This document shows positions 24,284 through 53,817 of a DNA stretch of 64,000 nt, piece by piece; within the stretch, counting starts at the first letter, position 1; every line of letters starts with the position of its first letter. Made by a program: the position numbers and the translations under genes. The notes beneath the pieces are model-generated. The model was not told where the DNA came from, did no database searches, and saw only the letters and a list, made by a program, of their open reading frames with translations. Source of the stretch: Sphagnum compactum (lineage: Eukaryota); contig OZ234493.1 in assembly GCA_965153455.1 (NCBI GenBank), positions 8,236,213-8,300,212 of the forward strand, in the 5' to 3' direction.

Positions 24284-27161
24284 GTCTCTTGTGTTTTTGC
24301 ATGTATCTATCTAAGGGCCTACCTAGGGTTAATTCATAACTCCTTATGTAGACCCAATATAGCTTTTTACGTATCCTTTAACATATGTAGGTCCCTAAGT
24401 AATCCCTAGGTAGCATCTTGAGTAGGCCCAAGGTAAATGTACCCTAGGTAGTTCCCTAGGTAAATCCTAAGTAGCCCTAATATAGCTAGTCCTTTCAATA
24501 GCTTCATAGGTAGACCATAGGTAGCTTTTAAGTAGGTCCTAACCTAATTACTCCTTACCTTAGGTAGCTCCCTAGTTTATGTGATAGTAATTTAGATAGA
24601 TTATAGTGCGGTTAGAATAAAAACTATTGTGATCATTTGGGAGTGTTCATTCTTAGTTTTGAGGAGTGATTTTTGGTAGATTTTTTGTAATATAAAATTA
24701 AAAATTTCTTAATACACCATCTCCATTATATCTCATTTATATTTGGTAAAGTATTTTTGAATTAGTTTTGAAAATTTGAAACAATTTTGAATTTTTAAAA
24801 AAAATTTAAAGTTTTACAATTTCAATTTTTAAAAAAATTATGAGTGTAGCTAATAGGTTGTTATCATTAAAAAAAAATCCAACCAAATGCAAGGTGAAAG
24901 CACATATAGTGACGCCTTTTTGAAATGTCACATTGTACTACATTTTAAGTTTGTGCTTGTTTGAGTGTATCCCACCTCAAACTTTTGAAATATTTTCACA
25001 ATATTTTTTCATATTATGTTAGAATATATAACCTAAGCAAAAAATTAGAAAAGAAGTCATTTTGTTTTATTTTATAAAATGAGATATTAAGTATATTTGT
25101 GAAGATGAATGTAATACCTATGTACTCAAAACACAAATATGTTCCAAAAAAAATTTGAATAATTTTTAATACTTATGAAAGTTAAAGATATATTAAACCA
25201 TGTCATTTCACATAGTTTGAACTATGTTTCGATATCATGTGATTAATTTGAAATTTTCCATTTCAAAAAATGAGTTTTTTCAGCAAAAATGCGATAAATG
25301 TGTGATAACATGGAATTTTGACAAATAATCACATGCGCATAGAAGGTGACAAGCATAGTTAGATGGGCCATATTTGAAATTTCATTAAAATTTATTATTT
25401 TAATGATTAATGAAGCTTTAAAATAATGCAATCAAAATGTAACAATGACCTTATTATATTAATGTATACTATAAATATACCCATGGATCTTTCAATATAG
25501 ATAATGAAATTTATTATTATTTTAAAACTAATATTATATAATATTAGTTTTGTAAAAATAATAATTGTAGGGCCCAACAACCAAAATTGATACCCAAAAT
25601 TAAATGTATTATACAATTGAAATAGTTATATTACATAACCTGTAGTACTAGACCCAAAAGTGCGTCTTATTATGCTTTTGCTAGCTTTTATTAATTGAGT
25701 CCTTTTGATAGTCCTTTGCAAATTTTTTTTTTTTATGTAATCAAGTTCATTCTCAAACATCCTAAATTAAAACCTAAACTTAATATTAGATGAAATGAAT
25801 TTTTAATTTGAATTTCTTGATATTCATATGGGGAAAAAGGAACAACTTGCCAAGATTACAATGGTTTCATATGGAAAAGCATAAAAAAAATTTAGTTTTG
25901 ATTGATTATGTTTAACATCTTATACCCTTTTTGACCCCTTTGAATGTATTTTGAAAAATGCAACCATACATTATATTTATATCCATGAAATAGACCATAA
26001 TGGGTATTACAACCCCCAATTTGCCCAAAATTAGGGCCAAAACAACAACTAAGGACAGTTAGTCTAGACAAAAAAAAAAACTAGAAATCAAACTTAAATT
26101 TCCACCTAAATTGGGGGTCTAGGGATTTTGGTCCCTAGTTTTGGCATCAAGTTTTTTCTTGTTCCCCTTGAGTTTTTCATGAGTGGTCACATTGTCCAAA
26201 GCAACCAAGCTACAAGAGTGACAATGATCATGCATATGGGAGAGATGAAATGCTATAGTTGAAATTGCAGTTGGCAACTTAATTACAAGAAGAAATCAAT
26301 ATTGAGTATGTTAATGAGGATTCAATTACAATGATGGCATGACTTGGAGCTACAAACTTGATTTGGACCACATTATGGACGACATGCAAGAGCATAGTCA
26401 ATTATACATTGTGATGGTGTAACTAGTAGCTACCTGAAGCTGGAGATAAATCCAACAATTTGACAACAAAGATTGATCCGTTCAAGTTAGGGCTACTAGG
26501 CTTCTATAGACATTGTTATGAAATTAGGCATTTTGATGATCAAGCTTTATATATACGACAATTTGAAATGAAACACATTTAAGAAATTTTATTGAATCCA
26601 TGCAATATGATTGACTTTGCAACATGATCAAGTCTGAAGGAGTTGGATATGATCTAGAGTTGATCAATCATTTGTCAAAGTTTCACGAGAATTCTAGTAC
26701 TTGCACATATATATATATATATATATATATTCTAGTCTCATCGTTTGTCTAATGAGTTAGTAGTCTTTATAGCAAAATTCCTCCGGAAACTTATATGCAT
26801 TACCACAATTTGCAATGCATTTGGTTGTACCTTGACTTTTTTTTGAATGAGCATGATAAAGTTAATGTTTTTCCTTCTTGCGTTACGCATGCTATTTATG
26901 TTAATTGCACTCATTATTAAGAACAATAGTATTACTAGCTTATACCTTTTGAACTTCTCTAGTTTGTGCAACCATTCTACTTCTTGGGAATTGAAAGAAA
27001 TTGCATTCCAAGTAGTTGCCCAAAATTTTGTGGGCAAAATTTTTGTGCTAGCTACCACTCTCCTTATGAAAAACATTTCATTTAGGGTTTAGGCCCTTTT
27101 GGATAGGGACCGTGATTAAAAGATTTGTTTAGAAAATGGAAATCTTTAGTCGACATGTGTA

Positions 27162-27337
27162 TGCAAATTCTCGAGTCCATCAAGATTGTCTAAAAAACAC
27201 TCTAACATGCTAATGGTTTTGCAAATTCTCGAGTCCATCAAGATTGTCTAAAAAACACTCCAACATGCTAATGGTTTTGCAAATTCTCGAGTCCATCAAG
27301 ATTGTCTAAAAAACACTCCAACATGCTAATGGTTTTG
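27162..27337. repeat. 58-bp tandem repeat, 3 near-identical copies
   Basis: TGCAAATTCTCGAGTCCATCAAGATTGTCTAAAAAACACTC(T/C)AACATGCTAATGGTTT at 27162, 27220 and 27278. Confidence 0.95.
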
Positions 27338-27476
27338 TCCAAATTTCAACATCATTTGAATGGTGTTGAGGGTGTAGCTATGCCAACAATCAAAGACTTG
27401 GTACCCAATAACCAAATGGTAGAGTTAAACTTATTTTGTCCTTAGTCTACTTGAGGAATGTGGGTTTGGTTGAGTT

Positions 27477-28562
27477 TCATAGTTTTTGCAATTTAGTGAC
27501 AACAATTGTTCGGAGACATTGATCAAAAGAGCCACAAACAGCAAGGCCTGCTTTGTCAGGGCTCCAATTGAGGCAAGAGATGGGTTGTGTGGCAAGTGTT
27601 TGGTGATTCAAGAGCTCCACTTTTCCCACAACTCCATATTCTCGGTTCTCCCCATCTTTCATACTTTGCTGGTCAGGGTATGAATACTTGTAGAGGGACA
27701 AGGACCCATCTCCTCCTAATGTCACAAAAACTTCTCTGTTTTGGGGAAGATGCTTCACTCCCCAAACGGTTGTTCCATGTTTTAGCTTCTCTTCCAAGCT
27801 CGTGTAGCCCTTCTCGGGATGATGTACACGAAGGTTGTATAAATGGAGCTTGGATTCTAATGTGGTGCACACAAATTTATTCATCTTAATGTCCTTGCGA
27901 TCAAAGTCTATGCCACAAATCCCATTTGGAAGTGTTGTTTGCCACCGAACTTTGCCAACTCTAAGATCAAAAAGTTTGATATCGCCATTGTCATAACCTG
28001 CTAGTACACAACGCTCTTCATCATTGTATGAATTCCCAAATGCGACTGTCCAACAATCTCTTGCAACATCACCTGTTTTAGGATCAAAACTAACTACTGG
28101 ATCATCTTTTTGTCGTTGATCCCAAATTCGAACTCGCCCATCTCTTCCTCCTGTTACAATCTCAGGTGCACCATAACCAATGTTCAATCCCCCACAACCA
28201 TCCATTGCATTTACAATTGTATCATGAGCTTTCTTCACATGCCAGATGGGCAAACTAAGCCTTTCCAAGTCCCAAACAAACAAAGTTCCTTTGAAGTCTC
28301 CAGTAGCTAGGTGCCTTTCTACCAAACTGGATGCTGCAAATGTACCACATTTGAAGCTGTTGTGCTTCTCAGCTTCCTTCAGTTTCTTCAACTTGTTTCC
28401 TTCCAATTCATAAATATACAATGCTCCTGTGTTGCGTGCAGTGGAACCTAGAGCCACGAACCTTGCACTACATGGTACCCATAATGTTTCAAAGATTGTG
28501 ACTGTGAGCGACTCACAAATGTGTTGCAATATTTGTGGTCTATTCCTTGCATCACATGCCAT
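27477..28562 (-). CDS. WDR92: WD repeat protein 92 / dynein axonemal assembly factor 10, intronless, 361 aa
   Basis: Single ORF with family motifs RPQIL.H, W.PCSARFV.LGS, FKCGTF.ASSL..RHLATGDF.G, GAPEIVTGGRDG.V..WD.RQK, RDCWTVAFGNSYN.EERCV.AGYDNGDIKLFDLR, FDRKDI.MNK, HLPQNRE.F, WSPDK.GLAVC.SFDQ..R..VTKL. Confidence 0.95.
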   Translation of the reverse strand: MACDARNRPQILQHICESLTVTIFETLWVPCSARFVALGSTARNTGALYIYELEGNKLKKLKEAEKHNSFKCGTFAASSLVERHLATGDFKGTLFVWDLERLSLPIWHVKKAHDTIVNAMDGCGGLNIGYGAPEIVTGGRDGRVRIWDQRQKDDPVVSFDPKTGDVARDCWTVAFGNSYNDEERCVLAGYDNGDIKLFDLRVGKVRWQTTLPNGICGIDFDRKDIKMNKFVCTTLESKLHLYNLRVHHPEKGYTSLEEKLKHGTTVWGVKHLPQNREVFVTLGGDGSLSLYKYSYPDQQSMKDGENREYGVVGKVELLNHQTLATQPISCLNWSPDKAGLAVCGSFDQCLRTIVVTKLQKL

Positions 28563-28758
28563 TTCTTACCGCCAAAGACTTGAAATTTGCAGTTCTACTA
28601 CTTCATGAAACTACTGTCAACCATCTTCAATCTGCATTCACACAACACTTAGCTGTCAAGGCAAAAATCCCAACTCATTCTCAAATTGATTCTTCATAAA
28701 ACCCCTTTTTGTCTCTTGAGTGATTTGGAAGTCTCCCAAAGCTTACTATGGCATAAGT

Positions 28759-31700
28759 TCACAAGGCAAGTTGGCCTTCCGAAATAGCTTGGCTTCTTAG
28801 CTCATCATGCTTACTTATCAGATCAATCTCCATCTTCATGTCTTTGAGTGCCTTCTTATCCTATACACATTGAAATTGTCATGAAATCAGAATTGCAGCA
28901 TCTTGGTTTTCGTAATTTTGTACAATAACACTTTGCACATTCATCTTTCATACATTGCTTTTGAGTGATCTTTCACGATTTCCACATACCCTAAACCTCC
29001 AAGAAGGACAATGTATGCAGATGTTTCACATGGGAGTTTAGAACAAGGAAGAGGCTGAGTACCTCAATTACACGGAGCTTAGAACGATGAAGAATGCTAT
29101 TAAAATCATGGTTTAGCTTCTCACAAGCATGTGCTAGAATGGATTTTAGTGCAGAACCTGCGATGGGCAAAATGTAGAAAACATATGAGAATTGAAATGT
29201 GCACACCATCTTCATCACATAGAATCCCTATTATAGAACAAATTGCCAACCGGAGTTAGTCTTTTTCTGCTAGTCTAGACACACAAGAATAAGAAAAAAA
29301 ATGAAGAAAACTATGCATGTGTCTATGGTGGATATAGATGATTGTAAAGTAATAATCTTGATAAAAATGTATGAATCCGGTATTTCATTACCTGAGTTGG
29401 GTGCTAGTCCATCATCAACATACAGATTTGCAAATTGCTTGAGTTCATTGTCTGGGTTTAAATCTCCAATTTCACTATCATGTTTACAGTTTGCACCATC
29501 AATCTCTTGTTCAAGCTTGTTTCCATTTCTCGTGTGTGAGAGGTTTTCTAGCGTAGTCTCAAGTGCTTGTTCTGGAGAATTTGAAGAATCATTTGGATTT
29601 TCAGGAAACTTTTTATTGTCTGGAGTCCGAACCTCACTGCCTCCTTCATCCTCCTCCTCCTCCTTGTTCAATCTCATCAATATGCTGGAGATGGGTTAAG
29701 CAGCCCCACACGTCCAAATTAGACATGAGTATTCTGTTGCAAATTCCCTCTTTGCAAAGAAAAAGAATTCACCAGATTTTAGAGGAAAAAACATTTTGCC
29801 ACATTTCAACACAAATTCTAGTTTTGGGGTAGTTTTGTTTTTGGTCAGTTTTCTACAGTTTGGACATTTTTCCGCAAAGAAGTCACCAATTAATGCTAAA
29901 TCTTTCTTTGGATCATGGGTAACAATGCTACATTAGAAAACTGGGGAAAACAGAAGAAAAAGAAAAAGAAAAAAACTGGTCTAGATTGATCTTATTGGAC
30001 AATGTAATTGAGTTGAAGGACCTGGTCTTTATGACCTCTTTGAGAACCATTTCTGGGTCCTCGTCAGAGACATCATCAACATCCTCTTGATACCCAGTTT
30101 CTCTGTTTTCATCATCTTCCTCCTCCTCCTCCTCCTCAAAAAGGCTCACCCCATTCAACTCCTTGAGATGAGGGAGGCTTAGCAACTCATGATGAAGCTC
30201 ATTTGCCAATTCCCAACAAGGATTTTCCGCAATATTCAGAAAGCTCAATGAGTATGGGATCTCTGTTTCTGTTTGTGAATAGTATATCCGAAGTACAAGT
30301 TTTCTTTGTTAGCAGCAACTTGATGAGGAAAAAACATCAGTACCCAGAGAAATGAATATTTTCATTAGAGAGTGATATGGATGTGATGGAGTTGACAAAC
30401 GGAAGATTTGATGTGTGATCATGATTGGGAAATTTCTGGCCCATGTTTCCTAAGGGTGTGTACAACATGAATCTGTAGATCAATCTGCCCAAATGGAGCT
30501 TCAGAAAATCCATGACAATTGTACATTTTCACAGCATTCATTTTGCATTTAGACACAACCCACTTTACACAAAAGCTAGAAATGGTGTAAAAAGACTTGC
30601 CTACATTGATGTGATCAATGGAGTTGTTTGAAGCATCAAGTGAGATAAGGTTCTGAAGAGATTGCAATCCGTTGAGAGTTGAGATTTGGTTTCCAGTTAC
30701 TGTCAAAAACCTCAATTGTTTGGCTCCTTCCAAAGCTTTGAAAGTACTTAAGAGATTCTGCAACAAAGTGCAACGAAAAAATCTGATCGTGTAATTCTTT
30801 GTGAACCAAAGTTTGCATTTTAGATTTTTGCACTGTTTAATGGGTAATTTTTCATCAATGATCGACAAGTTTTGTATAGTTTGTAATTGTTTGGAAAACT
30901 CAGATTTTTTTTTTTCTTGGAAACTTTAGAATAATGTTTTGTTGTCAAGCTTTTTAAGGGGATCAATTCCAACACTACAACTTGCATATGCTTACCTCAA
31001 GCAAGCAAGCAAGGGAGAGGGAGAGTTGCACCTGTTGCAGATACAGATGGGTTAAATTGGGAAGATAATGAAAAAGATCAGGCTCCAGACCAGTTAAATG
31101 TTCCCTATCCAGCTTTACATGAGACAGCTTTTGCAATTCTTCTTTTCTGGAATGAGGAATGAAAGTTTAGTGTTACAAGAACCCTTTACCAAGAAAGAAT
31201 TATGTCAAGACATTCCTCAAGAGATCCCCCCAAAATTCTGATCCTAAGTTGTACCCAAGTACATTACATTCAAGTGCTCAAGAATTCTCCAGGAAGGGTT
31301 ATGTGCAGAATAGAGAGCTTGGCGAGACTCTTGAGAATTGGAAATCAGCATTTCTAATCTTGTTTTCATACATGGTTGGTTTTCAAAGTTGAGCTGCACT
31401 CTCAGTTATTCTTCTTGGGTTTTTTTCTTGGCCAGCCAATCAGATGTCAATTAATGCAGAAAAGAAATCTCATGAGTATCTAGAAATCTCCATACTCACA
31501 ATCAAGGAAACTGGAACCACAGTTGAAAAAACTTTTCCTTTCTTTTAAGTCAAAGAAAAAACTCCCGGATAAGGACTGAAGAACCAGGAAGAAGAAGAAG
31601 AAGAAGAAGAAGAAGAAATACACCAGAAGGAAAGAAGAAACAATCATGAGTTTCAGAACAATAAAAGATCTATGAAAAGAGAGAGTTAAAAAAAAACGCG

Positions 31701-31822
31701 CACATGGAGTCTGCTGAAGCTTCTTCAAGGAAAAAAGGAGAGAGGTTGCGCTCAGCAACAATGGAAGCATGCTCAGCCAATGTTGTAGTCCAATTAGGAA
31801 GTATAGTTTGAACAGCCATCAT
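28759..31822 (-). CDS. LRRC46: Leucine-rich repeat protein, LRRC46-like, ~373 aa
   Basis: Exons 31822-31704, 31146-31032, 30757-30601, 30262-30022, 29684-29392, 29157-29063, 28860-28759 total 1122 nt in frame; intron 3 has a GC donor. IVAERNL..LSHVKLDREHLT..LTHLYLQQN..LRFLTVTGNQI..LDASNNSI..EIPYSLSFLNIAENPC..LPHLKELNG plus an acidic tract parallels human LRRC46 as I recall it (TKRNL..VRLDREGIT..LYLQGNKI..LRFLSLAGNQI..EFPQSLLILNLSGN). Confidence 0.8.
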
Positions 31823-34800
31823 GGTTTTTTTAATGCTCCTGTCATGGTGAGCTTCAACATACGATTACATAACTCATCACTCTATAGATCAGACATTCAT
31901 TGCTTCTTTGGACGATTGACCAAAGAAAAAAAAACAGTGAACAAAATCCAATGAAGAGAATTTGTCCCTCAACTTTTCCATCTCACAACATATCAACTGT
32001 TTAGACTTGATGTCAAATTCTACAACAGATCAGCCAGCCACAATAATGCTGCACTTTTCATGCATGGGGCATTTCTCATTTTACAAAAATCAACAACCTT
32101 GATAATACTCATATTGTATTTGTTATAAATGCTCAAGGTTTTGGTGCAAATATATGCACAGAAAAAATAGCATGATTAAACACCAAAGCAATTGGGAGGC
32201 AATTTTGTGTATGTCTTTTTTACAACACCAGAAATCCACTGACATAGCATCAATTTGGAGAGTTCAAATTGTGCACTATTTTGTACAAATCGATATAGGA
32301 TGCTTGAGAACAGCAATTGAGCATCAGGAAAAAGAAGAAGCAAATGCTTGCTATTTCAACACACATTTCAATCATTATTGTACACAATCTGGATATTGAC
32401 TAACCTTGCACCGGACTTTTTCAGATTGCTGTTGTTGACAAAGGAACATAGGTATAGTTCAGGAGACAAAGTGAAATCTACATTGTGAGTGCAATTTTTG
32501 CATCATCTCTCTCCTCCTCCCCCCATGAAGAAGAAGAGCTGAAGCATGATACCCTTTGGTTAGTTATGTGCATCATCATCCACTTTGATTTCTTAAAACA
32601 GTTATCATTCATTTGTCATGTTTGGGTAGATTGGATTCAGCAACACGTGAGAGCACTACTGGCATAATGTCATTCACTTTGCCATAGATCATAGTTTTCT
32701 TGTAGCTACACTAAGATAAGACTTGCTCCTAGAAATCCACAAAATCCTAGAAATTCATAAGGACTTCCTCCTAGAGAAACCCACGAAACTTGCTCCAAGA
32801 AATCCATGAGAACTGGCTCCTAAAAATCCACAAAAACATGCTTGTAGAAATCTCACATATGCATGGAGCAAAACCAACAAGATCCAGTTTTGATTTGTTT
32901 TTGTTTCCATGTCTGAAATGCTTGTTACTCAAATGCTTTTGTTTTGTTTTTTTTGGCTTGCGAAACCATCTACATTCATTTCAATCCATTTTCCTCACAC
33001 AGGTATTACAAAGATGGGTGATTGATGTGGTGCAAACAGGAAGGGTGGAGCATGCAAAGAAGAAGCTTGGGAGCTGATCATCACATCGCTGCAACTGTCA
33101 TTATAGGTTTTTTTTGCTGCAATACTCATTTCTTAAAATTTCAAATCCTTTGACACACTATCAAACCAATCTAAACGTAACGAGGCAGCTGGTCAACTAT
33201 GAAAAGATGGGCTCAACGTCTCAGTTCTTACTTCTCACTTCTCAACATAGCAAATAGTGAGGGAAAATTTTCCTTTCAGACAAAGCAGACCCAAATGATA
33301 TCAGACTTGCAAAAGCTAACCCCAAATTAGAGTAACATAACAAAACTCGCTGTCAGTTGTAAGATTGAAGGGTGCTTTGGGAGATAGCAATGCCCCTCAG
33401 CTAACTAATGAATGTCACTTTAGTGTAACCCAAATCTCTATAACACAAGAGGCTATATTGTGTACAAAGTTGGATCCTGGAATTCATTCAGTGGTCTTTG
33501 ATCTAATCCCGTCATGTTAGTCACTCACTCCTTGTCACTCTCTATGCCCCAGATCTGCCAACCTACAACATCCAAATATTCAGAGCAGCCAGCAAGCATC
33601 AAGCTTTGCCTTGTGAAAGCCTCTGTAATCCATGCTCTCCCTTACGCATCCACTTTCACATACCTATTTCTCTCTGTATGGATTGAAGTTATTGTTGTGT
33701 TCTGGCCTGACAACCCTAGAGCAGAGTGACAATGTTCAAAACCTTCATGCCCATGACATGAACCTATGGTGTCAGGTGACACCATAGGAAAAAAAAAATG
33801 AAAATGCGACACATTTGAGGACATGGTCTGCACTCCATTGTATATACTAACTAACAGCAGCTCAGAGCAGCACATGCTTTGACAAATGAAAAGAAAAACC
33901 ACTGTACTGTCATTCCCTGAATAGTTTAACACTTTCTAAGTATGTTCAGTGTCATTTGCAAACACAAAAGGAAACACCACTCCAATTAAGATTTCCAATA
34001 TATATATACAGCCCAAGCATCACAAGGTGATCATGGATCTTGACATGCTAATATTTAAAATTTCACAGTGACAGATGTCATCAATGACAACAACCAATTT
34101 TGACAACTAGGAACAGCACCGAGAGAACCCTTGGGCATCAGGCTCAGGCTCTACACCTTTCCACTTATCCCTATCTCCAGCACATAACAAAGAACATATA
34201 CAACCAGATTGCTCCATTGCAACCTATGTGTCACTACAAGTTACTATGCAGTGTACTCTGATACTACATTAAAACTACTTTTTCTGCGACTCAACAATCA
34301 TCTTGCAATTATGTCGCTAGTGTGTGAGGTTCTGTTCTCAGTTGTCTTTGGTTCACAGAGAGGATTGTTAACAGCTTTCTTTTGCTGGAAATCTCCAAAG
34401 GATACTCACATCTCAAACAGTTTCAACCAAGACTGGGACTTGTAAGTTACAGAATCCTAACCACAAACTTCATTGAATCTATCACAGCTGACTGACTAGT
34501 ATGCAATCAGAATTCATATTGCAGGTGCTATTGAAGCAAATATTACTCACATCCTCCAGAAGTGAAATCAGGGACCAGTGGCATTATCTATAATGGTCTC
34601 TCAACCATAGACCTCACCTACACATTGCCTCTCCTTCTCTTCTTGTTCCACTATGTGACTTTAGAAGGAGCAGGGCATGGAGAAGAAGATGACCTCAAAA
34701 GTATGTCACAATTCAGCCATATCAGCAATTCTGCCTCACATGCTGCTTTCAGGCACATTTCCACTTGGCCTCCTGCTTCTGTCTGAAGAAATCATGCTCA

Positions 34801-35352
34801 ACATCACCCAAGCACAACACAGCGCAGCCCAATTCAGCAGGTGGCAATGATGCCACAAGAGAGAAGATCAGCCCTAAGTAGGAGAAACAAGTCGCAAGTA
34901 GCCAGGTCACCAAGTTGATGTAGTGATTTTCATCCTCTCAATCCAGCTCCACCTCGCATCTTTGCATAATCTAAGCTGAGAGTGAACTTGTCTGCATCAT
35001 TGACAAGCACAGTGCCCCCATCTGTGGCAATCAAAGACAACCCTCAAACTCACCACTCAAAGCAATCCATGAACATCATTCCTACACTTATCAAAATGCA
35101 GGCAAAAAATCATCAGAAATGAAGCAAGATGAAAATGAATCTACAAGTCAGAAGCCCAGCAATCGAAGCAGCAGACTAGAAATGAAAATTGAGTACAATT
35201 GAAAACCAATCATAACTGATCAGACCAGCTGAGCAATAGACAGAGAACAATGGACTCCAACCAAGCAAGGGACATGTGCACTCCGCAAAGGACAAAAGTT
35301 TTGTGTCTGACCAGCTCCATACTTTAACAACATTTGAATTTACTTACAGAAT

Positions 35353-38300
35353 TCATAGATTGTCCAACCTTGCGGGATCTATTACCTCTTGGTTTGCCCT
35401 CAGCATAGACTGTGTTAGTCTTCGAGAAAAGCTTCCCCGCCGCACATTTGCAATCTCTGGCACAACACATTCCGCAGATGCTTGCAGTTGTGCATGACTT
35501 AGAACAGATGGTGACCAGACTGGAACTGCCCTGCCATCACTTTCCGCACTCTCACGAACTCCAGATTCAGCTGTGGAATTGAAATCCAAATCAAGACTTG
35601 GTGCTGCAGCCTGACCAGACTGGGATCTGTCTGCAAAACCTTGGACATGACCTTCAAGAGGACGTGAATGCCCAGCCATAGACAAGCCTGCTGAAGCAGA
35701 TGGAACAGATGGTGGCAATGCAGCAACGGCTTCCTCAATGTCCTCTTCAATAGGCATACTTTGGTGCAGGATGGATGCAGCAGCCTGCAGTTGAGATGTT
35801 GTAGGCAGAACTGGCACAAGCCTGTCTCTAAGGAAGCTACCTGAATGAGCGGGCCACTGTCTAACAACCACTGTATGTACATCCATTCTTTCATGGAAAG
35901 GGCCTCCTGTTCCTGGAACTTCAGTGGTTTCCCCAAGTCCTTCTTCCAGACCATTTGCAAGGATGGCTTTTGAGGCTGCCTCTCGTTCCCACATCTCTGC
36001 AAGTGAAGCTTGAAGCCTCTCTCTGGCAACCCCCATTTCCACAATAGGTCTGGGATAATTTGTTCCTAACTCAACCCCAGCAGCTCGAAGCGCAGTCAGA
36101 GGAGCATCCCATGGGTGGTGTATCCACTCAGTTGGTAATCTAGAGAGCTCCGGCAACCATCGTCGCACATATTCTCCATCTGGGTCAAACCTATATCCTT
36201 CAACCTGATGCACCATCATGTACCCATGTCAGTAGGCTGGAATAAATAATAACAGAAGGTAATGAAACTGAATCAGACAAGTTAGATTGAACAAAACATC
36301 CTTGTACCCCAACTGCAACCACTCCTACAATGACTCCCTCACAATTATCAAACACTGGCAACAACAATACCTGCGGATTATCCATTCGGTCCAGTTCATG
36401 ACCATCTGGCAAACTGCCGGATATATATTGCCAACCAAGGACATCACACTCCAAGTCCGCATCCAAAAGGGTGTCCCAGAAGTATTTCATTCCCCACCTC
36501 CAAGGCAGCTGCAAAAACTTCACAAAAAAGCTTGAAACTACAATTCGTATTCGGTTGTGCAACCACCCAGTGGCCCAAAGCTCTCGCATTCCAGCATCCA
36601 CCAATGGGTACCCTGTACGTCCTTGTCTCCATGCCTTGAAATAGGCCTCGTCCACACGCCATGGAAATGACTTCAAGTTGGCAAGCAGCGATCTCTCATG
36701 TGTGAAAGGGAAGTGGAAACTCAGATATCTGGAGTATTCTCGAAAGCCAATTGACCTTAAAAACAAGGTCACATTCTGCTCTCCCACAGCATTAGCCTCC
36801 CTGGTCCATGTGACTTGCTTTGTGCGCACCTCATAAAAAAGCTTCCGCACACTCAACTCCCCAAAATGCAGGTGAGGTGATAGGAGTGATGTGGTCACAC
36901 CATCTACCTTCTGCCGATTGGTTGCATACTCGAGCAAAGAGCCCTGAAGAAATGCTTCCAGTGACTTGTTGGCATAACTCCACCCAGGACACCATGCCCG
37001 AGCTAAAAGGGCGTTGCTACTCTTCTCAGACGAGTCTTCGAGACCCAACTCCTCAGCTGAGCAACTCAAGATCTTGCCTGGAAAAAATGAGGTTTTGTCA
37101 GTCCAGCCATTCAATATGCCTGCTCTACTTTCAACACCATTCAATGATTATATTCCTATCATCAGGAGCCCTCAACCCCTTTGAAAATAGGACAGTATTG
37201 AACAATCATGTGCCAAAGTGTGCATTAGAAACTGTAACACAGATGAACATGCATTATAGAGCATATTGATGATCACAGCAATGCAAAAAAGATGAATTCA
37301 GAAAAAAAGGCAGGACTTGGGGATGGCAAACACAGCCTTACTTCGTGCAGGGAGAATATGACCCAAACAAACCAGACATTCTCCCAAAGGGCTTACCTAT
37401 TGGTCCTGTCAATCGCCTTGGCGGTAGAACTGGGGCTTCAGGCTCATATGGTAAATTAAGACACTTCTGCCAATAAGCGTTGAATACTGTAAATGCTTGT
37501 CCGTTGTCATCATAAACTTGCCAAGGCTCATGGAGTAAATCTCCATTGAAGGTGTGAACAGAAATACCCTGCTCAGCCAATCCTTGCTTTACACTATGAT
37601 CCCTGACAAGTGACACAGGATCTGCAACCAAACCAAAGGCAGAGGTTTCTCTCAATTATGATCACCCATGAAGATTGAGCTTCCCCAAGACCACTGCAGC
37701 ACAATACTGCACTTACCTCAATTATCTTTGAGATAATTTGATCAAGTCCAGCTTGGACCAACACAGTAGGAATCCCAAGGAACATATACATCCACATAAA
37801 ATGAAAGTGCAGACAATCTCAACAACATGTATATATCCATGTGGAGACGAAATTCCACGTGGTTGGAATCCCTCAGCAAAACCCATGTACACAGAGTTGA
37901 GGTCAGAAGAAGTCCTAAAAAAGAAGCAACAACATCCTTTGAGATCTCCATGTCTAGAAGATCTCCATGAGAGTTCTTCAGTTTTGAGATGCAGTACTGG
38001 GGTCTAAATCAGATAGAAGAGAGGGACAGCAGGCAGCTGGAGAATGATGACTCATGAACTCACTCACCATAGAGATGATTGAAGAACACCTGAGTAGCTC
38101 CAGTTGCTTCCACAATCTCTAGAAGCATGCTCAGTGAATTGTGCGCCTTCCTCATAATCAAAGGAGAGCCTAATCTCCTGAGGGAAGTGTCTAGATGCAT
38201 CAAGCTTTGCTTCAGCCACCATCTTGAGACTCGGCCCGGATGGAACTGTCCGTCCTCCGCTGGACACCATATGAAGACAGGGATGACGGATCCTGATCTG

Positions 38301-38377
38301 GTAGCGGCAATTAGAGCCGGATTATCCTCCAGCCGGAGATCTCTTCTGAACCAAACTATGGAACTGCATGTCGCCAT
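35353..38377 (-). CDS. CRY1: Plant cryptochrome blue-light receptor (CRY1-type), ~697 aa
   Basis: Exons 38377-38068, 37621-37397, 37077-36371, 36204-35353 join in frame. Motifs SIVWFRRDLRLEDNPAL, TSLLSPHLHFGELSVR, WRQGRTGYPLVDAGMRELWATGWLHNR, DADLECDVLGWQY, DPDGEYVRRWLPEL, and C-terminal DAS-like DRLVP..acidic..STAES..VPVWSP. The exact C-terminus is uncertain if an alternative donor is used. Confidence 0.95.
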
Positions 38378-38766
38378 GATTCTCAAAACTCCGTTGTTTT
38401 TCGACACCGCTAATTATTCTTCCCAACTTGAGGCCATTGATCTAGTCTCCAGATTCTGCAACGCCGAATCTCTGCTGCTGCAAAGCTCAGAATCTCAGCC
38501 GCCTTCCTGCAGCCCTATGATTCTCTTTCAGGTTCCTATCTCCTCCTCCACCTCCAACATCCAGTCTTAACCCTATCGCGTTCTTTTGCGTGATGAAATC
38601 CCTAGTTTTCCGGAAGATTATAGCCTTATTCGACCGCCACCAGCTTCCCGAAGACGATGAGCACGTGTAGCAGCGGAAGCCTTCCCGGGTTCGCCTGACC
38701 CGGCCAGAAGGGGGTTCCTAGGAAATTTCAAGAGCTTCTCCTGCTGCTGCAATCGCCAGAGCCTCA

Positions 38767-38801
<35 letters not shown>

Positions 38802-40491
38802 ACGACATTTGTGAACTTCCTCAAGTGTAAACGTTCTTCATTTGACCCACACTCTCTTTCTCTTTCTCTTTCTTTCTCACCTGATGTGTCCGGGAGTGTG
38901 ATCTTCTGTGCACATCTTATAACAAGAGCTCGGATATGGCGGCAGCAGCAGCTTGTTCCTCCGCCACGGCAGGAAAGTAGTCAAGAAGCAAAAGTTCCCG
39001 CATCCAAACTCCTGGCACCGTATGGCCTATTCTATCTTGTTCGTCACGGGGGTGTGGTCTTTTTCTGTCGACCCTAAGGAATTAGCACGGAGATCCTCGA
39101 GATCACAGTTTCGTCAGTTATTGTTCCTCTACTGATTTTAAACAGAAGGAAGCACGACCCTTAATCATCCTCCTCCTCCTGCGATTCTTCCCTCGTCTCC
39201 TTCTAGTAGTTCTTCCTGTCGAGAGGCGAGAGCGGAGCTCAAAGCCCGGGGTACTCGGAAATCTTTCGCCACACCGGCGCCTTCATCGACGACGAAGAGG
39301 CAAACAAACGACGGAACAGACGTACGTGAAGCACGTCAAGCTAAGGAGCACCACAGCGACGACGATGACGATGATGACGAAGACGATGACGATGACGACG
39401 AAGGCGATTCCAATGACTCCTGTGGAAACAGAAAAAACCTATGGCGACCAACAACAGCAACAATATCAACAATATTATTAATTCATTTTTATTATCATCG
39501 CCATTAAACAAAACATAAACTGCACACAACTTAACTCACCTGCTCCTCACATTCTTTTTGGCAAAAAAATATCCCACAATTTAGGAAACTCCCGAACCTC
39601 AAAACCCCCGCCCCCCTGGGCCTCCCCCTCTGCCCCAAATTTGCCCCATTTTTTCGGTTAAAAAATAACCAAAATTCGACCCCAAAAACAAAACACTGGA
39701 CCTTGGAAAAAAAGTTTTTTTCTTTAGTGGCCAATTTTAGCGACTCTTTTTCTTTCTTTTTTTTTCTTTTTTTTCTTTTTCCCTTTTTTTTGGCACAAAC
39801 GGATTACAAACAAAATAAAATACATATTTTGGAATTCTTTAATAGTGTAAAATCGACTAATTTCGCAAATTTTCCGATTCGCCAAATTTTGATACACCAA
39901 AATTGGGAAAAACCAAAACAAAATAATAATATTAATTAATTAATTAATTAAATCAAACTTACCTGATGGAATAGTTGGAGCCAGTCACTTGTGGCGTGTT
40001 TTTTTTTTTTTTTGGCGAGTTTTCACTTTTTCTTTTTTTTGACCGGAGAAACATAATTTCCACACCATAATACAAAGGATTTTGGAGAGAAAAATGATTT
40101 TATTTTATATTTTTTTTAAAAGAAAAAAATCCCAGTAAGTGGGTAGTCAAAATATTAAAGGATTTTTTTTTCAATTTTTTTTCTCTTCGTCTGTAGCCAA
40201 ATTTGAGCCTCACAAAAAATCTACCATCCCTCCTCCTTCCTCCAGGGCCCATTTCTTTTACTTAAGAAGGGTGTGTTACAAAGGGATGTAATTATTTTTG
40301 TGCGCTTTTTTGCTTTGGTTTGGTGGAGGAGGAGAGGTAATAGGGGGGTCTTCTTTTTGTGGGGTGGGAGGGGGGGAGGGGAAATGTATAGCCCACACTT
40401 CCTTCCTAAGAGTAAGAAAGAAAGGGGGGAAGGGGGTTACGCCACTCCAATTGAAGGGCCTATGAAAATTCTTTTCTTTTAAAACAAGAAA

Positions 40492-50106: not shown

Positions 50107-53100
50107 CTATGCAAGGGGTACCAAAGGGGGTAGTAATGCTTCCAGACCATACTCTTGTTCTGAATATTTCTGCAAAAACGGGTGATTCTGCCACATATAC
50201 ACATAAAAGTTATTATCAGTACTCGAGATATCAGTCACCTATCATTTCCATCTATGCAGCTTACTACCTTACAAGAGGAAACAAATACTGGTTTAAAATC
50301 TTGATGTGTCTTACAACCACACCTGTTCAGCTAGAAAAGGAGACAAGCCATTTTGGGATCCACTGAAGGGTTACACAATCACTGCCAGTCAGATTACAGA
50401 ATGAGGGTGAGCTGAACACAATAGCATTGCTGTAAGTGCAAAAGATTATACTTACCAAAAGTTCTGCAGCTGATAAGCGATCTTTAGGCTCCTTTTGAAC
50501 ACTGTGTAGACAAAATAGAGTTTGAAGATGTCAGGTCTCCGACAACATAATGCATACTTTGTGATCACCTCATTCAAAGTCTTGCTAGACACCCAAGTCC
50601 TAACCCTAACCCTAATCTCCACACAGACTCATCAACAAGAAAGACAAGGGGCACACCATGCAGAAATGAAAGAGCAAAACTCTGGTGAGAATTTGTCAGC
50701 AGGAGCAACAGGCGGGGGCTGTTCAACAATGGTCTCAAGAAGCTCATAGAAGTTGAGCCAGCCCTCATCCTCTCCAGGTGGCTGGTAAGGGAATCGACCC
50801 AGTGCACACTCCAACAATGTCAACCCTAAGCTCCATATGTCACTGTCATACCCATATTTGCTCCCACTGATGCGCTCTGGCTGCCAAATTTTCACAAATA
50901 TAGGTATCACTTTTGAATACTCGCTCAAAGCATTCAACTTCACACTTACCTGCTCTGATTGCATCTACATTACGGACAATGGTAACATTTAACATAACAA
51001 AAATTACCTAAAGGCTATTAAACATACCGACATATATGTATATGTGCCAACAAATGTTTCTCGTTGACCCATTGAATTTGCCAGAACTGCACTCACGCCA
51101 AAATCTGAGATTTTGACTTCACCCTTGTGGTTTACAAGCAAGTTGGAGGGCTTAATGTCCCTATGAATGATATGCCTGACTTGATGTAGGTAATCAAACC
51201 CTTTCAATACCTACCAACCCTCAACCCCATTTCAGTGAAGACCCTGTTCTGTTGATACTCAAAAGAATTCCAAGAAAAAGAGCACACATAATGTCGACAC
51301 TGCTCCGCTAAAAGATTTTCCATCAGTCAGCATTGCCTGGAAAATCTTTGAGGAACATAATACATTGTGTACAAGATTGGGGTTTCAGAAGAATCACCAC
51401 TAAATTTTTGGTTCTACACAGGTGCAAAATTGGATACTTTTCACAGACATCAGCAAGGAAAACCAGGGAACAGCTAAGGCTTACATGCTTGCTGATAATT
51501 GCCAAATAAGGCTCAGGGATCTGCTTCACTTCTTTGATGATGTCAGCAAGGGAACCCCCATCCATGTACTCAAGCACAATAGAGATGACACCATTGTTGT
51601 AAAAGGAATCGTAACACACCACCACATAAGGAAATTGGGCAGACTGATTAATTTTCAGCTCCTGGACTATCTGCTTTCGTACTGTTTCATGAATGTTCAT
51701 TTGAATCACCTGCACATATTATTGCTTTTTCCATGAGAACAGAGATTCAACAACAACATCGGATGTTGGCTCAGAAAAATTGGGATTCAAAGATCAAAAG
51801 GAGAATATCACCTTCAAAGCATACATGTTGTTTGAAAACTTGTGGCGGACAAGCTGCACAACCCCGCCACTGCCCTTGCCAATAACTTTTACGGTCTCCA
51901 AATCTGCAAGAGACATCTGAGCTTCTGCTGCAGGTTGGACCTGTACCCCAAATCCCATGTTCAAATCATGCTAAACTAAGCTATCACAAATCTTTACCAA
52001 TTGATCTCAATTACAGCTCACAAGCACCTGTAACCACTCAACGTGTCACATAAAGTTGCTATAATCAGGAACATATAAGGGGCAAACTGCACAGTCACTA
52101 AGAACCTGTTCAGCTAGCTTCAAACATGGAAACAAAGATCGATGAAGTTGCAGAGAAATCTCCACAACAACAATTAAAGGTAACACGACAATGAGTGCAG
52201 TCATAACCTCATGAGAGTCGCTCACGAAGTGACAGACCATCACCTTCAAACATGGAAACAAAGAATGAAAGTCTCACCTGAATCTCTTTTGAGCTGTAAC
52301 AGAAAGACTTCCTTCTAAGATATCAATACTTCTACACTGCAATGTGACTTCAAACCTCTTAGCCAATGGTTCCCATTGATTGTCCATACGCTAGTGACAC
52401 AACTGACAAAAAACCCTAGGGACAAATTTCTGTAAGTAGACCATGATAGATTAGCCACACAGCTGACAGCAAACCGTATGGACAAAGTTCTGTGACACCA
52501 TGATTTCAATAAACAGGAAACCAGGGATACTAGAGTAAACATAGGGTTCCAAGTTGTGCAGGGACCTACTGCTGGAGTGGTTTCTTGTGAAACCACACGC
52601 AGGCCTTCCTTGTTAAGCAAGATGTCACCATCCTGAAATGTGCCGCTTGCCGTCCTGCATGGAAGGTCAGACGCAAACAGACCAATCTGTCATCTCTGGA
52701 CCAGATCTCGATGTGCAGCGAACTAGTAGCATGACTGATTATTTCAGGTGTGAGGTGACTGAATACTATTTAGAATGCTAGGCCATCCAGACGTAGAAAA
52801 CCTGCGGCATCCGTTATTAAAGCAATTCCTTCACATGCAGTTTCAGAAAGCCACAAAAACAGAGGCAAAAGAGAGAGAGAGCGATCTAGTCAGAGAGCTA
52901 AAGCTTCTAATGGACACAATACCATCAATGGTCGGTAAGGCTAGGGTTTCAGATCGAGCGAAAAAACACGCAGCCTTGCCTATGTCCCTTCTTCAATCTC
53001 TTGCCTTCGCAAGTGCACTTAAAGGGAGGCAAAAAGACCACACACACACGGGCATACACACACACATACACATGAGGAGCAATAGGAGGCGGGAAAGGCA

Positions 53101-53200
53101 AAACGAAAATGTACAGGAAGTCGGAGATCGTGTTCTCCTGCTTAGGGACTGTGACTCTGAGACCTCGCTTGACCTCCTTCCCCCTCATGCTGGGTTTCAT
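50107..53200 (-). CDS. MKK6: Mitogen-activated protein kinase kinase, plant group A (MKK6/NQK1-like), ~352 aa
   Basis: Exons 53200-53115, 52654-52570, 51940-51812, 51709-51485, 51210-51028, 50880-50657, 50501-50456, 50187-50107 total 1059 nt in frame. Motifs [39 protein letters not shown], activation loop S-MGQRE-T (S/T-x5-S/T) [13 protein letters not shown]. Group A is secure; the MKK6 versus MKK1/2 assignment is less so. Confidence 0.93.
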
Positions 53201-53817
53201 GTTGGCCGCTCCCCCTCGAAACCCCCACACACCGGCCGCTCTATTCAGGAGTGTGCAAATCACTATTCCATGGCCAAATGATAATAATAAATCTATTTCC
53301 GGGAGGAGGGGCGGGGGAAATACTTCTCTAGCGCACGAGGAAATAAACACAACACTACACGAGTACGATACTTACTTAATGCCAGGAGTGTTGTTCTCTG
53401 AGCTAGCTATCTATGCTTTCCCCCCTCCCGCACAAAAGCTGCAAATAAGACAAACAGAGGAAGAAGAAGAAGAGAAAGAAGCTCCGCGAGGACGGCGAAC
53501 GCAACACTGCCGTTGTTTTGTGTCGGCTCCGGTGCCGTCCGTCGTCGTTCATTCCTCTTCGTCTGCCTGACTGCCTACCCGTCTGCCCGTCTTCCTGCCC
53601 GTCTGCCTGACTGCCTGCCCGTCTGCCCTTCCTTCATTCCTTCCTTCCCTGCCCGTGCTGCACGGTGATAGGGAGGTCCTGGTAAATAATTCCTGCCTAG
53701 GTAATTCTTTCTTTAGGTCTTTTACCCTATCTGCATATCGTAGTTATTCCAAGTTACTCGCTTCCTTCGTTTTTGACATTTGTGGTGATGTAGGGTAAAG
53801 CCTAGGGTCACAAGCTC

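What the first reader, a model, noticed from the sequence alone, without database searches (positions are those of the whole stretch)
27477..31822. LRRC46-WDR92: two flagellar genes 196 bp apart with an intron in the gap - candidate dicistronic sperm-flagellum unit
Seen in sequence: the LRRC46 stop (TGA 28761-28759) and the WDR92 ATG (28562) are on the same strand with only 196 nt between them. That gap holds a complete intron: donor GTAAGC at 28746 (12 nt after the stop), a CTAAG branch-like motif and acceptor TGAATGCAG ending at 28632 (115 nt). Splicing leaves an 81-nt linker with two tiny uORFs (M-P-stop; MVDSSFMK-stop), no in-frame fusion, no AATAAA and no room for a promoter. Established: WDR92/DNAAF10 is an axonemal dynein assembly factor, LRRC46 is linked to sperm flagella in animals, and bryophytes have flagellated sperm. 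Inference: one transcript runs from the LRRC46 last exon into WDR92, either as an operon-like dicistronic mRNA or from a WDR92 promoter buried inside LRRC46.
Basis: partly seen in the sequence, partly recalled or inferred. Interest (0 to 1): 0.8.

Follow-up and report, generated by a model that had tools for sequence, protein, structure and literature searches.

The report
Two moss sperm-tail genes, one RNA
In peat moss, two genes needed to build sperm tails (LRRC46 and WDR92) sit back to back and appear to be copied into one spliced RNA, a neighbourhood also kept in a distant moss, but whether the second protein is made from that shared RNA is still untested.

Summary

- One RNA unitig runs through LRRC46 exons 3-7, splices exactly 28746-28632 and enters WDR92. 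A second spliced contig covers both genes with that intron retained. The two share a genotype, so they may not be independent.
- Both genes are single-copy here and intact. They are consecutive gene models in Ceratodon too, but unlinked in Marchantia and Selaginella.
- WDR92 is intronless. Two Sphagnum reference annotations have no model for LRRC46.

Against a simple dicistron:
- Contigs are not single molecules.
- The RNAs seen skip LRRC46 exon 2.
- 38 AUGs precede the WDR92 start, which rules out leaky scanning.
- The RNA could be read-through from the upstream cryptochrome.

Best reading (0.45): WDR92 is a promoterless second cistron translated by reinitiation across the 81-nt spacer. Main rival (0.35): WDR92 has its own short mRNA from a promoter inside LRRC46. 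The closest known kind is Arabidopsis intergenic-splicing read-through. The scan earlier noted two other two-gene transcripts in this genome.

The parts
32405..32512 (-). Upstream non-coding exon 0 (5' end not mapped; four AUGs). It may be the LRRC46 leader or the tail of cryptochrome read-through.
   Evidence: First 108 nt of spliced contig L004; X1 loose end matches its 3' end; donor GTTAGT
31704..31838 (-). LRRC46 exon 1, with a double start ATG-ATG at 31822 in strong context
   Evidence: L004; X1 depth 6.47 at 31832; 0/119 coding substitutions vs L005/L006
31032..31146 (-). LRRC46 exon 2 (LRR core), needed for the intact 375-aa ORF but skipped in the RNAs seen
   Evidence: Model; 69% identical to the Ceratodon protein over 36 aa in tblastn of relative loci; 1/115 substitutions vs L005; little or no X1 depth
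30996..31031 (-). 36-nt mini-exon (33 nt in some relatives). Its 5' boundary CAG|GTGCAA is the exon-2 donor in the intact model but is used as an acceptor in RNA.
   Evidence: L004 exon1>mini>exon3; X1 joint 30757/30996 and loose end at 31033
30601..30757 (-). LRRC46 exon 3, followed by a GC-AG intron
   Evidence: X1 joint 30268/30601 with ends CT..GC; Pfam LRR_4
30022..30268 (-). LRRC46 exon 4 (LRR cap, acidic stretch)
29392..29684 (-). LRRC46 exon 5
29063..29157 (-). LRRC46 exon 6
28747..28860 (-). LRRC46 exon 7 with the stop TGA (28761-28759) and the first 12 nt of the spacer
28632..28746 (-). 115-nt intron in the spacer, beginning 12 nt after the stop; spliced in X1, retained in L004; it carries three further AUGs
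28563..28631 (-). Last 69 nt of the spacer: uORF MVDSSFMK* (AUG 28624) with an internal MK* (28606), then no AUG for the last 44 nt; in-frame TAA two codons before the WDR92 start
27477..28562 (-). WDR92/DNAAF10 ORF, 361 aa, intronless, single copy in this genome
   Evidence: 1086-bp models in two reference genomes
27045..27476 (-). Shared 3' untranslated region (poly(A) site not mapped); includes a 58-bp x3 tandem repeat at 27162-27337
   Evidence: L004 ends at 27045

Best explanation
In mosses WDR92 sits directly behind LRRC46 and has no terminator or promoter of its own between them. One transcription unit covers both genes and ends behind WDR92 (shown at contig level). In sperm-forming cells the full seven-exon LRRC46 ORF is translated from a strong double AUG (inferred). 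Some 40S subunits stay on after the stop, pass the three AUGs in the first 40 nt of the spacer before they reload initiator tRNA, and start WDR92 81 nt downstream (inferred; mechanism untested). Splicing the 115-nt intron shortens the spacer from 196 to 81 nt and removes three decoy AUGs, so it could act as a WDR92 on-switch (inferred). The intron lies only 12 nt past the stop and WDR92 has no introns, so no exon-junction complex would remain far downstream of the LRRC46 stop to trigger decay (inferred from the recalled 50-55-nt NMD rule). The effect would be joint expression of two motile-flagellum factors, with WDR92 at low dose.
For:: one 1240-nt X1 unitig joins mini-exon, exons 3-7, the spliced spacer and 238 nt of WDR92 CDS at depth 7.18; the rest of WDR92 is at 7.0 and exon 1 at 6.47, so there is no excess of WDR92-only RNA. 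No contig lies in intron 6 or the spacer intron (depth arithmetic). L004 (2766 nt, spliced) runs from exon 0 to 432 nt behind the WDR92 stop; single copy of each gene, so WDR92 must come from this locus.+34: Ceratodon WDR92 is M758_12G034200 (KAG0597972.1) and its LRRC46 homologue is M758_12G034300 (KAG0597973.1). WDR92 is intronless in two reference genomes. LRRC46 exons 1-3 differ from L005 at 2/391 sites against 96/2186 in introns (Fisher p = 2e-5). Functions: WDR92 is restricted to organisms with motile cilia (PMC4831875, passages); LRRC46 is needed for mouse sperm flagella (PMC9369233, abstract).
Against: Contigs cannot show single molecules, starts or ends (tool caveat), and depth is only about 7. 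Neither RNA carries exon 2, so the predicted full dicistronic mRNA was not observed. X1 and L004 share alleles at 16 of 16 testable sites, so they may be one population. In Arabidopsis, second ORFs of 7 of 8 tested read-through RNAs were rarely translated and most loci had their own second-gene start sites (PMC9768141). Reinitiation after long ORFs is generally poor (recalled). The 81-nt spacer is not measurably more conserved than introns (1/81, p = 0.26) and not unusually structured (-32.4 vs -28.5 +/- 3.5 kcal/mol). Strand and distance of the Ceratodon pair are unknown. Tissue of the RNAs is unknown.
Confidence: 0.45

Rival explanations
1. Overlapping tandem genes with one shared 3' end. 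WDR92 has its own promoter inside the 3' part of LRRC46 (intron 6 or exon 7) and the 115-nt intron is its 5'-UTR intron. The long RNA is the LRRC46 mRNA carrying WDR92 as untranslated 3' UTR, like Arabidopsis intergenic-splicing read-through RNAs.
For: There are 38 AUGs ahead of WDR92 on the long RNA. In Arabidopsis, 202 of 271 second genes had their own start sites and second ORFs were rarely translated (PMC9768141). A start inside exon 7 would not branch a unitig, so it would be invisible. WDR92's lack of introns fits this reading too.
Against: No X1 contig in intron 6 and no depth step between LRRC46 exons (7.18) and WDR92 (7.0). No TATA-like box between 33600 and 28560 (weak evidence). A short mRNA would still start with a strong-context 8-codon uORF.
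Confidence: 0.35
2. The joined RNAs are incidental read-through in non-sperm tissue, possibly starting in the upstream cryptochrome gene. In antheridia LRRC46 is polyadenylated inside the spacer intron and both genes are ordinary monocistronic units.
For: The RNAs seen are mis-spliced for LRRC46 (exon 2 skipped). Published models put the upstream cryptochrome end about 4.2-4.4 kb above the WDR92 start, which I map to only about 300-450 nt above where L004 begins. Exon 0 has four AUGs. In Arabidopsis, 106 of 158 intergenic-splicing loci end the first gene inside that intron.
Against: About 1,800 million letters of poly(A) RNA (X11, 12% of 4 runs; species not named, but it matches the local repeats) gave no read on either gene, which constitutive cryptochrome read-through would not predict. 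The linkage is kept in Ceratodon. WDR92 would still need a promoter within LRRC46.
Confidence: 0.12
3. The long RNA is the only transcript, but WDR92 is reached by internal ribosome entry in the spacer or by cleavage into two mRNAs, as described for Drosophila Adh-Adhr and CheB42a/llz.
For: Same RNA evidence as the best explanation; precedents are cited in PMC2776167 (passages).
Against: The spacer is short, weakly structured and not extra conserved. No IRES test was run.
Confidence: 0.07

Closest known systems
Arabidopsis intergenic-splicing read-through transcripts (Kurihara et al. 2022, PMC9768141; read parts 1-3 of 6)
   Same: RNA spans two protein-coding genes, with an intron spliced between the first gene's 3' end and the second gene's 5' end (158 of 271 loci there).
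   Different: There the RNAs are mostly minor, NMD-degraded by-products beside monocistronic mRNAs. Here no monocistronic form was seen, the intron begins only 12 nt after the stop, the second gene is intronless and single-copy, both genes serve one process, and the neighbourhood is shared by Sphagnum and Ceratodon.
Green-algal bicistronic loci and CDC26-TTM3 (Gallaher 2021 PMC7896298, passages and supplement search; Duenas 2024 PMC11291117, abstract and first third of Results)
   Same: Short inter-ORF distance (medians 183 and 40 nt there; 81 or 196 nt here); ORF2 of about 1.1 kb; conserved colinearity.
   Different: Algal ORF1s are short (medians 357 and 291 nt), have weak Kozak context and few AUGs, and are bypassed by leaky scanning. 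Here ORF1 is 1128 nt, starts with a strong double AUG and has 25 out-of-frame AUGs against 20.9 expected. Chlamydomonas WDR92 appeared only in an all-genes table among the held Gallaher supplements (that file was cut when stored).
Animal dicistronic mRNAs with a long first ORF: Drosophila Adh-Adhr and stoned, mammalian CERS1(LASS1)-GDF1 (PMC2776167, passages and reference titles; details otherwise recalled)
   Same: A full-size first protein, a short spacer, and a second ORF reached by reinitiation or internal entry.
   Different: Protein from the second ORF was reported there; here it is untested. The genes and the kingdom differ.
WDR92/DNAAF10 and LRRC46 protein families
   Same: WDR92: 56-72% identity over almost the full length to named DNAAF10/WDR92 proteins. 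LRRC46: single-stretch hits named LRRC46 in lungfish, sturgeon and frog; top Atlas hit 'LRC46' at 0.93.
   Different: The proteins look ordinary; only the gene arrangement is unusual. No tree against DNAAF1, DRC3 or LRRC61 (the next Atlas hits, 0.92) was built.

Membership tests
Intergenic-splicing read-through transcripts (plants) | RNA overlapping two protein-coding genes | tested here: met
   Contig level only: X1 unitig and L004; no long reads
Intergenic-splicing read-through transcripts (plants) | Intron spliced between gene 1 3' end and gene 2 5' end | tested here: met
   Joint 28631/28747 in X1; absent from DNA-like runs X6, X7
Intergenic-splicing read-through transcripts (plants) | Monocistronic forms coexist; first gene often ends inside the intron | tested here: inconclusive
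   No intron contig and no depth step in X1, but contigs cannot show ends
Intergenic-splicing read-through transcripts (plants) | NMD target; second ORF rarely translated | not testable with these tools
   Needs upf1 mutants and Ribo-seq
Leaky-scanning bicistronic loci (green algae, CDC26-TTM3) | Short ORF1 with weak Kozak context | tested here: not met
   375 aa; context ACC-ATG-ATG-G
Leaky-scanning bicistronic loci (green algae, CDC26-TTM3) | AUG depletion before ORF2 | tested here: not met
   38 AUGs; 25 out-of-frame in ORF1 vs 20.9 in codon shuffles, P(<=obs) 0.99
True dicistronic mRNA (Adh-Adhr type) | One molecule carries both complete ORFs | tested here: inconclusive
   Both RNA assemblies lack exon 2 of ORF1
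True dicistronic mRNA (Adh-Adhr type) | Two separate proteins, no fusion frame | tested here: met
   In-frame TAA two codons before the WDR92 ATG; sequence level only
True dicistronic mRNA (Adh-Adhr type) | Second protein translated from the shared mRNA; no own promoter | not testable with these tools
   Needs CAGE, Ribo-seq and reporters
WDR92/DNAAF10 | Full-length similarity to named members; WD40 propeller | tested here: met
LRRC46 | Short N-terminal LRR block plus cap and acidic tail, best matching named LRRC46 | tested here: met
   3 of the 10 hits looked up are named LRRC46 and none is named as another ciliary LRR family; no tree against related LRR families

The most novel reading that the evidence does not exclude
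Mosses have kept, since the Sphagnum-Bryopsida split, an obligate two-protein sperm-flagellum mRNA. Their only WDR92 gene has no promoter and is translated by reinitiation after a 375-aa first ORF. It is gated by two splicing switches: the spacer intron and a dual-use splice site that turns LRRC46 off. This would be a functional eukaryotic operon in land plants that does not use leaky scanning.
Probability: 0.3. Interest if true: 0.8.

Novelty: new variant of a known kind. Interest (0 to 1): 0.6.

Why it matters
Plant nuclear two-gene RNAs are mostly regarded as decayed read-through, or work by leaky scanning past a tiny first ORF. This locus has a full-size first ORF, two functionally linked sperm-flagellum genes, and a single-copy second gene, so it tests directly whether plants can reinitiate usefully after a long ORF. 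If the linkage holds in Physcomitrium (not established here), sperm motility gives a clean knock-in readout. In practice, LRRC46 is missing from two Sphagnum reference annotations, and knock-outs or terminator insertions in LRRC46 may be polar on WDR92.

Tried and rejected
Fusion protein: rejected by the in-frame TAA two codons before the WDR92 start.

Leaky scanning from the cap: rejected (38 AUGs, no depletion, strong ORF1 start).

LRRC46 as a pseudogene: rejected. The ORF is intact and the LRR exons are conserved. The acidic tail varies freely, with 10-12 non-synonymous against 3-4 synonymous codon changes.

An intron-bearing parent copy of WDR92 elsewhere in the genome: none found (1 match among 5 candidates scored).

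Extra conservation or structure of the spacer: not significant. TATA-like or AACCG-like motifs (the latter recalled as DUO1-type): no TATA-like match and one CGGTT at 29252; uninformative.

Linkage outside Sphagnum by DNA: LRRC46-like matches lay in 5 of 80 metagenome loci, all Sphagnum-like. Many of the other loci have little upstream DNA; the one other-moss locus (L008) has none.

Physcomitrium LRRC46: not retrieved. One search scored only 8000 candidates and missed even the Ceratodon query member, so this is no evidence of absence.

Raw poly(A) run X11: no reads on either gene, so no read-level test of the junction.

Ceratodon coordinates: the supplement of PMC8245031 could not be read and may bear on strand and distance. 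The PMC12851517 supplements had no hit for the gene names. No complex prediction was run, since binding is not claimed.

Literature: no paper holds both LRRC46 and WDR92. WDR92 with Physcomit* gave one paper, not about linkage in the passages seen. Listings showed no moss bicistronic report. Subscription papers are largely missing from the library.
Full report
OBSERVATION. The linker has three AUGs rather than two. By sequence alone the intron is not special: the gap holds 15 GT..YAG pairs of plausible length, and a second acceptor with a better pyrimidine tract sits at 28653. The window lies in a 382-Mb genome. Its WDR92 is 98% identical to a cluster holding Sphagnum proteins, so this is a peat moss.

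THE GENES. The downstream ORF (27477-28562, 361 aa, no intron) matches named DNAAF10/WDR92 proteins at 56-72% over nearly full length and groups with moss WDR92 in a tree. The upstream gene has seven coding exons giving an intact 375-aa protein, including a GC-AG intron after exon 3. Its closest hits outside Sphagnum are Ceratodon and Selaginella hypothetical proteins. Marchantia and Klebsormidium homologues and three animal proteins named LRRC46 were among the 10 hits looked up; the top Atlas hit is 'LRC46' (0.93). Each gene is single-copy in this genome (lower bounds). LRR exons 1-3 differ from relative locus L005 at 2 of 391 sites against 96 of 2186 in introns (p = 2e-5). WDR92 occurs only in organisms with motile cilia, including Physcomitrella and Selaginella (PMC4831875, passages). 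Mouse LRRC46 is needed for sperm flagella (PMC9369233, abstract).

RNA EVIDENCE. Of 11 runs offered I laid 4. In X1, a moss metatranscriptome kept as contigs, one 1240-nt unitig (depth 7.18) joins a mini-exon, exons 3-7, skips exactly 28632-28746 and continues 238 nt into the WDR92 CDS. A second unitig (depth 7.0) covers the rest of WDR92; the two overlap by 21 nt. Exon 1 has depth 6.47. Bin arithmetic leaves nothing for intron 6 or for the spacer intron, so there is no sign of an alternative first exon or a WDR92-only surplus. X6 and X7 behave as DNA, with no skip at any intron, so the spliced form is not a DNA copy. X11 (raw poly(A) reads, about 1,800 million letters, 12% of four runs) has no read on either gene, only partial repeat matches; both genes look silent there. 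Separately, locus L004 from the metagenome collection is a 2766-nt spliced contig (an RNA assembly, by inference) running from an upstream exon 0 (32512) through LRRC46 and the whole of WDR92 to 27045, with the spacer intron retained. X1 and L004 agree at 16 of 16 testable alleles, so they may come from one population. Contigs do not show single molecules, starts or ends.

A COMPLICATION. L004 skips exon 2 and joins exon 1 to a 33-nt mini-exon just behind it, cutting ORF1 to 53 codons. X1's unitig begins at the same mini-exon, a loose end shows exon 0 joined to it, and exon 2 can have had at most about 1.5-fold depth on the arithmetic (inferred; up to about 2.3 if only 20 nt of the mini-exon were laid). 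The junction CAG|GTGCAA at 31032/31031 is therefore the donor in the intact protein model (the Ceratodon, Selaginella and Klebsormidium proteins have no insertion there) but an acceptor in these RNAs. The full dicistronic mRNA is thus predicted, not seen. Also, published Sphagnum gene models place the end of the upstream cryptochrome about 4.2-4.4 kb above the WDR92 start (PMC9946827 supplement rows). By my mapping that is roughly 300-450 nt above the start of L004, so read-through from that gene is possible. The silence in X11 argues against constitutive read-through.

CONSERVATION. The layout and both spacer splice sites are the same in the 5 Sphagnum-like DNA loci aligned. In Ceratodon purpureus, WDR92 is M758_12G034200 (KAG0597972.1) and the LRRC46 homologue is M758_12G034300 (KAG0597973.1): consecutive models, strand and distance unknown. 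In Marchantia polymorpha the two are on different scaffolds (MARPO_0021s0031 vs MARPO_0045s0107). In Selaginella both WDR92 alleles lie on scaffolds of other lengths (3.67 and 6.95 Mb) than the LRRC46 homologue (4.14 Mb). The linkage therefore looks moss-specific, on two moss lineages and two outgroups. WDR92 spans exactly 1086 bp in S. angustifolium and S. divinum, and neither annotation has a model where LRRC46 lies. Other mosses also seem to have an intronless WDR92 (L008; full-length calls on metagenome contigs; inferred). A Cryptomeria isoform lacking an internal 30 aa suggests exons in seed plants. One apparently intronless protein (P0006) falls outside mosses, so intron loss is not proven to be tied to the linkage. 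Retroposition into the LRRC46 3' UTR and rearrangement followed by intron loss both fit.

MECHANISM. The green-algal route, leaky scanning past a short weak ORF1 (PMC11291117, abstract and first third of Results), does not fit: 38 AUGs precede WDR92, out-of-frame AUGs are not depleted (25 vs 20.9), and ORF1 opens with a strong double AUG. What remains is reinitiation after the LRRC46 stop, internal entry, or a separate short mRNA. The spliced spacer has its AUGs in the first 40 nt and none in the last 44, and splicing removes three more, which suits reinitiation (inference). The intron lies 12 nt after the stop and no intron follows, which suits escape from junction-triggered decay (recalled rule). 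Against this, Arabidopsis read-through RNAs with intergenic splicing are mostly NMD targets whose second ORFs are rarely translated, and most second genes have their own starts (PMC9768141, parts 1-3 of 6). The spacer shows no extra conservation or structure. I put dicistronic reinitiation at 0.45, an internal WDR92 promoter with a shared 3' end at 0.35, incidental read-through at 0.12 and internal entry or processing at 0.07. That some RNA spans both genes I put at about 0.9.

KNOWN KINDS AND NOVELTY. Two-gene nuclear RNAs are known in Arabidopsis, poplar (10.1101/2025.07.17.665350, abstract only), green algae (PMC7896298, passages) and animals (PMC2776167, passages). I found no paper naming this pair (listings). 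The locus meets the two structural features of intergenic-splicing read-through and fails the leaky-scanning features. It differs from both in its long multi-exon ORF1, shared function and cross-class linkage, so I file it as a new variant of a known kind. Earlier AI notes report two other two-gene transcripts in this genome (not checked here); none covers this pair. Interest 0.6; 0.8 if the obligate reinitiation reading holds (probability 0.3).

Noticed in passing
window 31032/31031 and 30996-31031 (-): One CAG|GT junction serves as exon-2 donor in the intact LRRC46 model and as acceptor of a 33-36-nt mini-exon in RNA; the 3' half of coding exon 2 doubles as a pyrimidine tract. This could be an off-switch for LRRC46 outside sperm cells. 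It resembles dual-specificity splice sites (label recalled; listing only).
   Followed up: partly
window 30269-30600 (-): LRRC46 intron 3 is a GC-AG intron, confirmed by the X1 joint. X1 also has a 175-nt contig inside it (30391-30565, depth 3.2) and one in the first intron (32094-32260): pre-mRNA, DNA or unannotated exons.
   Followed up: partly
window about 32900-39300 (-): Cryptochrome/photolyase gene (ATG near 38377; Pfam FAD_binding_7) on the same strand. Published models suggest its transcript ends only a few hundred bases above LRRC46 exon 0, so a three-gene read-through is possible. An exon-like stretch lies near 33764-33662.
   Followed up: partly
window 28759-31822 (-): LRRC46 has no gene model in the published S. 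angustifolium and S. divinum gene tables; S. troendelagicum and S. jensenii records hold only 159-161-aa C-terminal pieces.
   Followed up: yes
window 32405-32512 joined to 30996-31031: The exon0>mini-exon isoform opens a 324-aa N-truncated LRRC46 frame from an AUG in exon 0; significance unknown.
   Followed up: no
P0070, P0077, P0090: Several database WDR92 records (two mammalian, one with no organism given) carry EF-hand domains fused in front, as if an upstream gene (recalled: PPP3R1) reads through into WDR92 in mammals too.
   Followed up: no
WDR92 and ASDURF belong to the same R2TP/prefoldin-like complex (recalled), so two subunits of one complex may sit in two-gene units in Sphagnum.
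   Followed up: no
window 27162-27337: 58-bp tandem repeat, three copies, 99% matched, in the WDR92 3' UTR; relatives appear to have fewer copies.
   Followed up: no
window 31460-31510 and 30870-30915: Short repeated elements in LRRC46 introns 1 and 2 with very high depth in relatives' DNA; about 80 nt of intron 2 (30825-30905) is absent from several relatives.
   Followed up: no
window about 51300-53300 (-) and 95-595 (+): A protein kinase gene (Pfam Pkinase; MAPKK-like by recall) and a TmcA_N-domain exon.
   Followed up: no
P0006: A full-length WDR92 called on a 21.8-kb contig, hence probably intronless, groups outside mosses; its upstream neighbour is worth checking.
   Followed up: no
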